Shown here one piece after another: positions 6,687 to 8,016 of a stretch of 10,542 bases of DNA. Source of the stretch: Promethearchaeia archaeon (GTDB lineage Archaea > Asgardarchaeota > Lokiarchaeia > Sigyniarchaeales > SOKP01); contig JAWOFX010000062.1 of NCBI GenBank assembly GCA_046497275.1, positions 1 through 10,542 on the forward strand, read 5' to 3'. The translations under genes were made by a program, and so were the position numbers. Position 1 is the stretch's first letter. Each line of letters starts with the position of its first letter. The notes beneath the pieces were generated by a model. It was not told where the DNA came from and ran no database searches. It was given only the letters and a program-made list of their open reading frames with translations.

Positions 6687-7503
6687 GGAATTAGGGAATT
6701 TATATTCTATTATATTATGTGCGGGAGAAGGTACTCGATTTGGAGAAAAAACTGAACTAATTCCGAAACCTTTAATACAAAATGAAGAGTTGAATAATAA
6801 ACCTATTCTACTTCACACAATAAATCAATTACTTCAATCCAGAATAAAAAATATAACTATTGTTAAAGGATATCGTGGAGATCAAATAGAAGAGTGTATC
6901 TCTTCTCTTAAAAAAGAATCAGAATATAAAGATCTGAATTTAATCACCATTGATTCTGAAGGGGAATATCAAAAAGGACCATTTTTCTCGTTTCTTTCTA
7001 TTAGAAAAAACCATAAATTGCTTAAAGAAAATCATTTTTATTTGATAATTCCAGGAGATACGATTTTTGAGTCTGGGTTTTTTCAATATATTACTCAGTT
7101 TTATTATGAAAATAAATCTATTCTTTCGAAATTTCCATATCTCTTTTATCGTACTGTTAAGATCAAAAAGATTGAATCTAAAAGATATGTCCCAATAATA
7201 AAATCCAAATCTTTAAACCAATCCTTATTAAAAGAGATTCAACTTCACAAAAGAGATGAATTATCAAATCAGAAAGAAATCAAACAACTTTACCCGATAC
7301 TTTTAGTATCCTTCCCACTTTTTCAAAAAATTATTGAATCCGAAAAAAGATTTAAAGGAAATTCTCTTAGAGAGTGGCTGAATTTTTACTCCTACGAAGA
7401 AAATAAGATATACATTCATGAAATAAAGAAAGGATATGAATTTTTTGATATAGATACTCCTAACGATTTAAAATCATTAAAAAAAAAAAAAGGTGGACAA
7501 TAG
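6655..7503 (+). CDS. Nucleotidyltransferase (NTP_transferase/MobA-IspD-LicC-like fold), substrate unknown
   Basis: ILCAGEGTRF, PKPL, IVKGY, IIPGDTIF and DIDTPNDL motifs; no C-terminal LbH domain. The likely start is ATG 6655, overlapping map by 32 nt (TTG 6667 is an alternative). ATG 6598 would overlap map by 89 nt. Confidence 0.8.
   Translation: MEIPLSPQENEELGNLYSIILCAGEGTRFGEKTELIPKPLIQNEELNNKPILLHTINQLLQSRIKNITIVKGYRGDQIEECISSLKKESEYKDLNLITIDSEGEYQKGPFFSFLSIRKNHKLLKENHFYLIIPGDTIFESGFFQYITQFYYENKSILSKFPYLFYRTVKIKKIESKRYVPIIKSKSLNQSLLKEIQLHKRDELSNQKEIKQLYPILLVSFPLFQKIIESEKRFKGNSLREWLNFYSYEENKIYIHEIKKGYEFFDIDTPNDLKSLKKKKGGQ
7479..7491 (-). terminator. U13 archaeal intrinsic terminator for the candidate ncRNA
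   Basis: A13 on the + strand (T13 on the - strand) begins 3 nt after the 3' strand of the RNA terminal stem. Confidence 0.55.
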
Positions 7504-8016
7504 GTTTCATTGAAATTATGCTTTCTAGTTGAATATTTCAATGAAACAGCTTTAAATCTTCATGGAATTTAAAGTGAGTTTCTTCAAAGACATATCTATG
7601 ATGAATATATATCTACTAAAGACCGCGATAGGATAACAATATATAAGTTCCTGTGTAAAAAGCACAATAAATCCGGCACTTTGAAACTTAACGCATCATT
7701 GATAATCTCAAATTCAAAAACTCAGCAATCCAGTAAGACTTTATGAGTTTTGTAAGATGTATAGGAAATATTTGATAATTTTTGAAATTTTTATGAAAAT
7801 GTTGATATCTAAAAATCTTTTGTGTAAAGCATTACTCTCATTTACCCAGAGTTATTAGATTGAATGTTTGAAGGGGTTATTCCCAAAAAACCAACAGAGA
7901 TTTGGTAAAAAAGGATTCAATAAATATTCTCAAAATTACACCCGAATTGAATAATAACGCAACGTTTTATAGGTGTTTTATTGCTCTCAAACCAATGCAA
8001 AAAATTTCTATTGTCC
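7495..8016 (-). ncRNA. Candidate ~520-nt structured non-coding RNA, family unassigned
   Basis: No ORF of 60 aa or more. 5' GGACAAUAG (8016-8008) pairs with 3' CUAUUGUCC (7503-7495). TATA lies at -30..-23, a U13 tract follows, and there are at least 8 internal stems, several closing with G-U pairs only on the minus strand. Confidence 0.6.
7504..7547. repeat. Perfect 13-bp inverted repeat GTTTCATTGAAAT / ATTTCAATGAAAC with 18-nt loop
   Basis: Arms at 7504-7516 and 7535-7547, read directly from the sequence. Confidence 0.95.

What the first reader, a model, noticed from the sequence alone, without database searches (positions are those of the whole stretch)
7495..8016. Candidate novel ~520-nt structured ncRNA with its own promoter and terminator
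Seen, in minus-strand order: BRE/TATA (8053-8039); start at G8016, exactly -30 from TATA; a 9-10 bp helix joining both ends (8017-8008 with 7503-7494); then ACC and U13. Internal stems (plus-strand arms) are 7981-84/7997-8000, 7915-21/7946-52, 7890-94/7902-06, 7807-12/7855-60 enclosing 7834-38/7848-52, 7717-24/7744-51, 7618-25/7674-82, 7588-95/7607-14, 7550-57/7567-74 and 7504-16/7535-47. Several helices (7588/7614, 7618/7682, 7938/7976) have G-U pairs on the minus strand but A-C mismatches on the plus strand, favouring minus; two terminal wobbles favour plus. I found no RNase P CR-I/CR-V, no canonical SRP helix-8 GNRA/AGC motif, no 5S core and no tmRNA G3-U70. Inference: either an undescribed large archaeal RNA or a highly diverged, expanded SRP or RNase P/MRP-like RNA. 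Its ends (UGGAC..UAG / UGUCCACC-Un) loosely recall archaeal SRP helix 1.
Basis: partly seen in the sequence, partly recalled or inferred. Interest (0 to 1): 0.9.

Follow-up and report, generated by a model that had tools for sequence, protein, structure and literature searches.

The report
New large noncoding RNA in Lokiarchaea
The gene-free gap holds a real, single-copy gene for a roughly 525-base noncoding RNA whose two ends pair with each other; it occurs in every genus of one large family of Loki-type Asgard archaea, matches no described RNA family, and has no known function.

Summary
The window comes from a Promethearchaeota (Loki-type Asgard) genome. On the minus strand there is a BRE/TATA box at 8053-8039. 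A 10-bp helix then joins 8017-8008 to 7503-7494, followed by T13.

In this one sequence the helices are at chance level (fold z = -1.8; shuffles give 9-10-bp inverted repeats). Comparison with relatives makes the case:
- An ORF-free gap of about 500-850 nt sits at the same syntenic place in all 13 genera of the family.
- A model of the promoter plus 5' end finds one copy in 110 of 126 family genomes and none in 24 genomes of six sister families.
- The terminal helix keeps pairing through compensatory changes at several positions. In some lineages it slides or lengthens to 15 bp, always running from the predicted start to the T-run.
- G-U pairs favour the minus strand.
- Stems around two oligo-U loops also covary.

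RNase P and SRP RNAs lie elsewhere in this genome. Rfam 15 and the literature searches found nothing. My best guess at function is a protein-binding scaffold RNA. No expression data were available.

The parts
8039..8053 (-). BRE (AAAAAG) plus TATA box (TTTAAATA)
   Evidence: Read directly. TTTAAATA is invariant or nearly so in 64 homologues, and its spacing to the start of the terminal helix is conserved (alignment A1).
7479..8016 (-). Predicted RNA: start at G8016, end within the T-run, about 525-535 nt
   Evidence: ORF-free here and in 31 syntenic gaps. Single copy in the genome. One copy in 110/126 family genomes.
8008..8017 (-). 5' strand of the terminal helix P1 (UGGACAAUAG)
   Evidence: 10/10 pairs with 7494-7503. 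Compensatory changes in relatives.
7494..7503 (-). 3' strand of the terminal helix P1 (CUAUUGUCCA). Its complement also supplies the last codons and TAG stop of the convergent NTP-transferase ORF.
   Evidence: CTATTGTCC followed by a T-run is conserved in nearly all homologues.
7992..7998 (-). GCAUUGG, the most conserved internal motif
   Evidence: The C, A and both G of the motif are invariant and the other three bases nearly so across 64 sequences. It may sit in a loop closed by 7997-8000/7981-84, but stems there are only marginally longer than in shuffled controls (4.3 vs 3.5 bp).
7882..7914 (-). Hairpin CC-U6-ACCAA...UUGGU-U5-GGG, at the position of the first oligo-U tract of the family
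   Evidence: In other genera a U7-U11 tract here is bracketed by covarying stems (UGUGA/UCACA, CUGG/CCAG, CCGA/UCGG, GCCA/UGGC).
7647..7666 (-). UGUG-CUUUUUA-CACA hairpin followed by GGAAC. Possibly a shortened counterpart of the family's second U-loop hairpin plus GAGACA.
   Evidence: In relatives the stem covaries (GAGUA/UACUC, GUGU/ACAC, GGUA/UACC, UAGC/GCUA) around a U7-U13 loop. Homology of the window's copy is inferred, not shown.
7504..7547 (-). 13-bp hairpin next to P1
   Evidence: Exceeds all 60 shuffles; pair probability 0.97. The same-genus relative L013 keeps it with one U-A to C-G double change and one A-U to G-U change.
7550..7574 (-). 8-bp hairpin CUUUAAAU/AUUUAAAG
   Evidence: Pair probability 0.96. 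No comparative test was possible.
7479..7491 (-). T13 terminator
   Evidence: A T-run of about 5 to 13 follows P1 within about 1-5 nt in almost all homologues. Archaeal terminators are U-tracts (PMC8716108).

Best explanation
This is a gene for a stable, trans-acting noncoding RNA of about 525 nt in this genome and 358-635 nt in relatives. It is specific to one family of Promethearchaeota (Lokiarchaeia).

Inferred steps: it is transcribed on the minus strand from its own BRE/TATA promoter, starting at or next to G8016, and ends at the T13 run.

Shown by covariation: the first and last 9-15 nt of the predicted transcript pair, which would close the molecule and probably protect its ends.

The interior evolves quickly but keeps a few short single-stranded motifs. 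These are GCAUUGG near the 5' end, two oligo-U tracts held in hairpin loops, GAGACA, and in most genera a GCUUUGAUU/AAUCGGAGC helix next to the terminal helix.

I infer that it works as a protein-binding scaffold (an RNP) that presents these motifs. Oligo-U-binding proteins such as Sm-like proteins or the KH domains of aCPSF1 are the most plausible partners. I think a ribozyme or a long antisense regulator is less likely.

My odds are about 0.9 that it is a real ncRNA gene and about 0.35 for the scaffold mechanism.
For: Synteny and coding:
- The order map - (NTP-transferase) - gap - cyclophilin-like - VTT is kept in about 30 genomes sampled from the family's 13 genera. The gap is 475-1178 nt and holds no ORF conserved across them.
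- In genus g6 the RNA stays beside map/NTP-transferase although the cyclophilin-like gene has moved away.

Distribution:
- Model R1 (promoter plus the first 48 nt) finds one hit each in 110/126 family genomes, across all 13 genera. Two assemblies have two hits (one of them also has two cyclophilin-like loci).
- R1 finds nothing in 24 genomes of six other families of the class.
- The strict pattern occurs once per genome in 73/131 family genomes, and the reversed-pattern control almost never matches.

Terminal helix:
- Core pairs are kept through double changes: GGAUAAUAG/CUAUUAUCC, GGACAUUAG/CUAAUGUCC, GAACAAUAG/CUAUUGUUC, AGACAGUAG/CUACUGUCU and GAGAAUAGUA/UACUAUUCUC.
- Position 10 occurs as G-C, U-A, A-U or G-U.
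- In some lineages the helix slides outward (GAAAAGGACAAU/AUUGUCCUUUUC) or grows to 13-15 bp. It always starts at a conserved distance after the TATA box and ends just before the T-run.

Strand:
- There are 7 G-U versus 2 A-C cells among the distinct arm combinations of the helix.
- The 3'-domain model scores 53-110 bits on this strand against 31-44 on the other.

Interior: stems bracketing both oligo-U tracts covary. The 3' domain pairs in 88% of cells against 32-54% when the partners are slid.

Not coding: the ATG at 8018 is not conserved, and GGA CAA TAG carries an in-frame stop.
Against: - No transcript has been observed.
- GC content equals the background, unlike RNase P RNA, SRP RNA and 16S in the same genome. 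The fold energy is not significant.
- The interior is unalignable even between species of one genus.
- In the 3' domain, covariation is no better than column shuffles (83/500 shuffles reach the observed score). Its support is therefore conserved complementarity, not compensatory change.
- The stem proposed to close the GCAUUGG loop is barely longer than in controls.
- Internal U7-U13 tracts look like archaeal terminators (PMC8716108). Full-length RNA would need read-through.
- Nothing ties the RNA to any particular protein. The scaffold role is inference from anatomy.
Confidence: 0.6

Rival explanations
1. It is a trans-acting base-pairing regulator. The invariant GCAUUGG motif, or another conserved loop, acts as a seed that pairs with mRNAs or with pre-rRNA/tRNA. 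The rest of the molecule gives stability.
For: The most conserved element is a short motif that is probably unpaired. The fast-evolving interior with a few fixed motifs fits seed-type regulators. The closed ends would stabilise the RNA.
Against: A size of 360-635 nt with several conserved motifs and hairpins is far more than a seed regulator needs. No target was identified. The genome holds only the first 828 positions of 16S and no 23S, so rRNA complementarity could not be tested. A 7-8-mer match would be weak evidence anyway.
Confidence: 0.2
2. The locus mainly yields shorter RNAs. Transcription stops at the internal T7-T13 tracts at about +100 and +330, giving a 5' RNA of about 105 nt. The full-length form is a minor read-through product, or the end pairing forms between separate pieces.
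For: Internal oligo-T tracts are conserved in position. U-tracts of four or more are the archaeal termination signal (PMC8716108). The 5' portion of about 110 nt is the best conserved part within the genus.
Against: Stems whose two arms lie on either side of each internal U-tract covary, so functional RNA spans them. P1 covariation links the first and last nucleotides of the full-length unit. I did not look for conserved internal promoters.
Confidence: 0.1
3. It is a DNA-level element: terminal inverted repeats of a domesticated MITE or transposon, or paired protein-binding sites such as origin boxes around an AT-rich spacer.
For: There are 9-10-bp inverted repeats about 520 bp apart around AT-rich, fast-evolving DNA. 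Mirrored changes in both repeats could also arise if one protein reads both sites.
Against: - The element is single copy in this genome and at most one copy per relative, at a fixed syntenic site.
- None of the eight neighbouring ORFs scanned against Pfam is a transposase or an Orc1/Cdc6, and the cumulative GC-skew profile shows no clear turn at this locus.
- One-sided changes are mostly those that give G-U on the minus strand.
- The complementarity slides or extends into unrelated sequence while staying tied to the TATA-defined start and the T-run.
- Internal hairpin stems covary.
Confidence: 0.04
4. It is a highly diverged SRP, RNase P or RNase MRP RNA.
For: The closing 5'/3' helix and the oligo-U end recall helix 1 of archaeal SRP RNA and P1 of RNase P/MRP. 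An Alba paralogue lies 1.7 kb away, and Alba-fold proteins bind the P3 domain of eukaryotic RNase P/MRP RNA (my own knowledge).
Against: RNase P RNA (116.9 bits) and SRP RNA (85.2 bits, full model length) are elsewhere in the genome. There is no Rfam match at E <= 1 in 12 homologous loci and only chance-level matches at E <= 10 in the window. The Alba gene is simply part of a block that is syntenic across the family.
Confidence: 0.02
5. It is a decayed or unusually coded protein gene, or it encodes a small protein.
For: An ATG sits at 8018 and a 38-codon frame follows.
Against: No ORF is conserved in any of 31 syntenic gaps. The ATG is not conserved, and the conserved GGACAATAG carries TAG in that frame. 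All three minus-strand frames are full of stops of all three kinds.
Confidence: 0.02

Closest known systems
Archaeal SRP (7S) RNA, Rfam RF01857
   Same: A stand-alone archaeal RNA gene with its own promoter, a helix formed by the 5' and 3' ends (helix 1), and a U-tract end. It is a protein scaffold.
   Different: The genome has its SRP RNA elsewhere. There is no CM match. The new RNA is longer, is not GC-enriched (28.9% vs 46.3%), is confined to one family, and has a fast-evolving interior.
RNase P / RNase MRP RNA (RF00373, RF00030)
   Same: A P1-like closing helix, a multi-hairpin body and a size of 300-500 nt.
   Different: RNase P RNA is present elsewhere. No match to any P or MRP model and no conserved catalytic core. 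Sequence conservation is far lower than in a ribozyme core.
Large orphan bacterial ncRNAs (OLE, ROOL, GOLLD, raiA)
   Same: Unusually large, lineage-restricted noncoding RNAs found by comparative genomics before any function was known, and thought or shown to act as RNPs or assemblies.
   Different: No sequence or structure match (Rfam). Those RNAs show dense covariation over most of their length, whereas here only the ends and a few hairpins are constrained. This one is archaeal and has an archaeal promoter and terminator.
Eukaryotic Pol III-type RNAs with paired termini and a 3' oligo-U (Y RNA, vault RNA, 7SK), and Sm-class snRNAs
   Same: The 5' and 3' ends are locked in a stem directly followed by an oligo-U end. 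Many of the internal oligo-U tracts are preceded by A and followed by G, and all lie between stems, which loosely resembles Sm sites.
   Different: No homology was detected. The U-tracts are longer (U7-U13) and sit in hairpin loops rather than between two hairpins. No partner protein is known. The resemblance is architectural only.

Membership tests
RNaseP_arch (RF00373) | Scores at or above the family's covariance-model threshold, i.e. has the P4 / CR-I / CR-V core | tested here: not met
   No hit at the gathering score in the window. No RNase P hit at E <= 10 in 7300-8300. None at E <= 1 in 12 homologous loci.
RNaseP_arch (RF00373) | It is the genome's (normally single) RNase P RNA | tested here: not met
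   A full-length RNase P RNA with 116.9 bits lies at C109:82647-82972.
Archaea_SRP (RF01857) | Covariance-model match including the helix 5/8 motifs | tested here: not met
   No match. The genome's SRP RNA is at C87:12-333, with 85.2 bits over the whole model.
RNase MRP, Y RNA, vault, 7SK, telomerase RNA, OLE/ROOL/GOLLD and all other Rfam 15 families | Covariance-model match | tested here: not met
   0 of 4227 families matched at E <= 1 in 12 homologous loci. In the window there are only chance-level snoRNA-like hits, the best at E = 0.18 and far below the gathering score.
MITE / transposon remnant | Multiple dispersed copies with terminal inverted repeats | tested here: not met
   One copy in the own genome by DNA search and by R1. 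Extra pattern hits in relatives lie inside coding sequence, with no promoter and no 3' partner.
Structured ncRNA gene (generic criteria) | Conserved promoter and terminator, no conserved ORF, and base pairs kept through compensatory changes | tested here: met
   This holds for the terminal helix and the two U-loop hairpins. It is not shown for most of the interior.
Structured ncRNA gene (generic criteria) | A discrete transcript exists | not testable with these tools
   No transcriptome data were accessible, and I know of no cultured member of the family.
Sm-class / Sm-like-binding RNA | A single-stranded PuAU4-6GPu site flanked by stems and bound by an Sm ring | tested here: inconclusive
   Oligo-U tracts, many preceded by A and followed by G, occur between covarying stems. 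The tracts are longer than a canonical Sm site, lie in loops, and carry little information. Binding is untested.

The most novel reading that the evidence does not exclude
This is the RNA core of a previously unknown ribonucleoprotein specific to one Lokiarchaeial family. It would be a closed-end scaffold whose oligo-U loops recruit Sm-like proteins or the termination/processing factor aCPSF1. That would make it an archaeal counterpart, in working principle, of eukaryotic snRNP or 7SK-type particles.
Probability: 0.12. Interest if true: 0.95.

Novelty: categorically new. Interest (0 to 1): 0.78.

Why it matters
Large noncoding RNAs with no assigned class are rare in prokaryotes, and past examples (OLE, GOLLD, ROOL, 6S) have opened new biology. 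I found none reported for Asgard archaea, the closest known archaeal relatives of eukaryotes. There, any lineage-specific RNP bears on how RNA-rich eukaryotic machinery arose.

This RNA is single copy and is present in all 13 sampled genera of a family with more than 125 species-level genomes. It has clear gene boundaries, so it can be tested directly by mapping sediment metatranscriptomes, Northern blot or RACE on enrichments, and pull-downs. It also gives a family-specific marker and a case of a functional RNA that is not GC-enriched in an AT-rich genome, which GC-based RNA finders would miss. If it turns out to be a minor regulatory RNA, the interest drops to that of a new lineage-specific sRNA family.

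Tried and rejected
- Rfam at the gathering score on the window, at E <= 10 on the region and at E <= 1 on 12 homologous loci. Nothing beyond chance.
- Homologues outside the family. The cyclophilin-like gene of five genomes from two sister families (including closed ones) shows no comparable ORF-free gap upstream. Model R1 gives only weak, mostly promoter-like hits in 14 genomes of family f2, and on inspection none has the motif plus a 3' partner. There were 0/24 hits across six other families. I did not search other Asgard classes.
- Second pattern hits in G023, G006, G030, G061 and G045. They lie in coding sequence, with no promoter and no partner, and are chance matches.
- RNAalifold on global MAFFT alignments of 12, 27 and 51 full-length sequences returned almost only P1, because the interior is misaligned. 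A column-pair scan had the same problem. Averaged pair probabilities gave a tentative model only.
- The 5' hairpin closing the GCAUUGG loop has a mean stem of 4.3 bp against 3.5 in shuffled controls, so it is not established.
- The 3'-domain model R2 does not match the window or the genera g1, g3 and g8 at E <= 0.001, so that domain is not universal. Its covariation is not above shuffles.
- A central hairpin (CCUG-AGUGC...GCACU-CAGG) gave only two distinct variants under strict anchoring, which is no covariation evidence.
- An ENE-like reading of the U6/U5 internal loop at 7882-7914 is not conserved in L129 or L013, so I dropped it.
- Complementarity of the conserved motifs to rRNA was not pursued. 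The assembly has only a partial 16S and no 23S.
- Literature searches found no description. The earlier-findings index holds nothing on this RNA.

Full report
**What is in the window.** On the minus strand, AAAAAG-A-TTTAAATA lies at 8053-8039. GGACAAUAG starts at 8016. UGGACAAUAG (8017-8008) is perfectly complementary to CUAUUGUCCA (7503-7494), and CC plus 13 T follow at 7491-7479.
- The 700-nt gap between the NTP-transferase-like ORF (6598-7503, +) and the cyclophilin-like ORF (8206-8595, +) has no ORF above 57 aa. All minus-strand frames are full of stops.
Stem f pairs at only 5 of 8 positions in the register tested. Five helices (P1 and four internal stems) have high ensemble pair probability.

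**Is it more than chance in this sequence alone? No.**
- The fold z-score is -1.81 for the minus strand and -1.34 for the plus strand.
- Shuffles of the region give perfect inverted repeats of 8-12 bp, most often 10. Only the 13-bp hairpin 7504-16/7535-47 stands out.
- GC is 28.9%, equal to the background, while RNase P RNA, SRP RNA and 16S of the same genome are 45-49%.

**Organism and known RNAs.** Relatives are Promethearchaeota (Loki-type Asgard) assemblies. The genome is 3.85 Mb in 188 contigs. Its RNase P RNA is at C109:82647-82972 (116.9 bits). Its SRP RNA is at C87:12-333 (85.2 bits over the full model). Rfam 15 gives nothing for the window or for 12 homologous loci at E <= 1. The diverged SRP/RNase P reading is therefore excluded.

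**Comparative evidence.**
- A DNA search of relatives showed that only the two ends of the region are conserved across genera.
- I used the cyclophilin-like protein as an anchor. About 30 genomes sampled from the family's 13 genera have the order map - (NTP-transferase) - gap - cyclophilin-like - VTT. The gap is 475-1178 nt, with no ORF conserved across them.
- Almost every gap has TTTAAATA, then GGACAATAG or a variant at a conserved distance downstream, then GCATTGG within 20 nt. After 350-630 nt comes CTATTGTCC and a T-run.
- I collected 64 unique genomic copies and more from metagenomes.

**Terminal helix.** Pairing survives changes on both sides:
- GGAUAAUAG/CUAUUAUCC, found in several genera
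- GGACAUUAG/CUAAUGUCC
- GAACAAUAG/CUAUUGUUC
- AGACAGUAG/CUACUGUCU
- GAGAAUAGUA/UACUAUUCUC

Further points on the helix:
- The tenth pair occurs as G-C, U-A, A-U or G-U.
- Many copies have GGAUAAUAG opposite CUAUUGUCC. That is a U-G wobble on this strand and an A-C mismatch on the other. Overall there are 7 G-U against 2 A-C cells among distinct arm combinations.
- In one subgroup the helix has slid outward (GAAAAGGACAAU/AUUGUCCUUUUC). In others it is 13-15 bp.
- In every case the helix begins where the TATA spacing predicts the start and ends 1-4 nt before the T-run.

That behaviour is what a transcript with paired termini would show. A pair of DNA binding sites would not be expected to behave this way.

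**Distribution.**
- The element is single copy in the own genome.
- The strict pattern GGAYAATAG-N(1-16)-GCATTGG occurs once per genome in 73/131 family genomes, and the reversed control almost never matches. Extra hits are chance matches inside genes.
- Model R1 finds the gene in 110/126 family genomes across all 13 genera. It finds none in 24 genomes of six other families of the class, which probably include the cultured Asgard strains.
- The five sister-family genomes examined show no comparable ORF-free gap upstream of their cyclophilin-like gene.

**Interior.**
- It diverges so fast that species of one genus align only over the first 110 nt or so and the last 50 nt.
- Two oligo-U tracts (U7-U13), at about +100 and +330, are each bracketed by short stems whose sequences differ between lineages while staying complementary. 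The first has UGUGA/UCACA, CUGG/CCAG, CCGA/UCGG and GCCA/UGGC. The second has GAGUA/UACUC, GUGU/ACAC, GGUA/UACC and UAGC/GCUA, and is followed by GAGACA.
- The window has a U6 tract at the first position, in a hairpin at 7882-7914. It also has a shortened UGUG-CUUUUUA-CACA hairpin at 7647-7666, which may correspond to the second.
- Most genera also have a 3' domain in which GCUUUGAUU pairs with AAUCGGAGC next to P1. It pairs in 88% of cells against 32-54% when the partners are slid, but with no excess covariation.
- The window's genus lacks that domain. It has the 13-bp hairpin instead, which the same-genus relative L013 keeps through one double change and one wobble change.
- The stem that would close the GCAUUGG loop is not established.

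**Interpretation.**
- Shown: a conserved, single-copy, non-coding unit with fixed promoter and terminator signals, end-to-end pairing under selection on the minus strand, and at least two internal hairpins under selection.
- Inferred: that it is transcribed as one full-length RNA. The covarying stems span the internal U-tracts, which argues for read-through, although such tracts are archaeal termination signals (PMC8716108).
- Also inferred: that it acts as a protein scaffold presenting GCAUUGG, the U-loops and GAGACA. The low GC and the fast-evolving interior argue against a ribozyme. The size and the number of motifs argue against a simple seed regulator.
- The neighbouring genes, including the Alba paralogue and a zinc-ribbon gene noted earlier in this scan, form a block that is syntenic across the family. 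They give no functional link.

**Novelty.** I rate it as a new RNA class of unknown function. The caveats are that expression is unproven and that it is confined to one family.

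Noticed in passing
window 7478-7503: The convergent NTP-transferase-like ORF ends ...KKKKGGQ*. Its poly-Lys codons are the complement of the RNA's T13 terminator. Its GGT GGA CAA TAG is the complement of the RNA's 3' end (ACC plus the 3' strand of P1). 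The two genes therefore overlap tail to tail by about 25 nt.
   Followed up: partly
window 9501-10006 (minus strand): An Alba paralogue and a 58-aa zinc-ribbon ORF, both flagged earlier in this scan, are conserved next to the VTT gene across the family. They are part of the same syntenic block as the RNA. I found no specific link to the RNA.
   Followed up: partly
G000:C87:12-333 (locus L004): The genome's SRP RNA matches the whole Archaea_SRP model but scores 85.2 bits, below the gathering score of 96.5. Asgard SRP RNAs of this family may be missed by standard annotation.
   Followed up: no
L120 (G037:C84, from about 652): In a sister-family genome, a strong AAGATTTAAATA promoter is followed by a unit of about 75 nt whose ends pair (GGAGAGUA...UACUCUCC). 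This may be another small closed-end RNA.
   Followed up: no
window 7882-7914 (minus strand): A hairpin with a U6 and a U5 strand facing each other across an internal loop (CC-U6-ACCAA...UUGGU-U5-GGG). It looks superficially like triple-helix-forming ENE elements but is not conserved in the two nearest relatives.
   Followed up: partly
window 2751-4328 (minus strand): A 525-aa N6/N4 DNA methylase gene is wedged between the tRNA pseudouridine synthase TruD gene and the aspartyl/asparaginyl-tRNA synthetase gene. It lies on the opposite strand to its neighbours and may be an orphan or mobile methyltransferase.
   Followed up: no
G017 (C87 and C151) and G139 (C57 and C117): These two assemblies carry two copies of the RNA's 5' region. 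G017 also has two cyclophilin-like loci, which suggests mixed strains in the bin rather than true paralogues; G139 was not checked for this.
   Followed up: no
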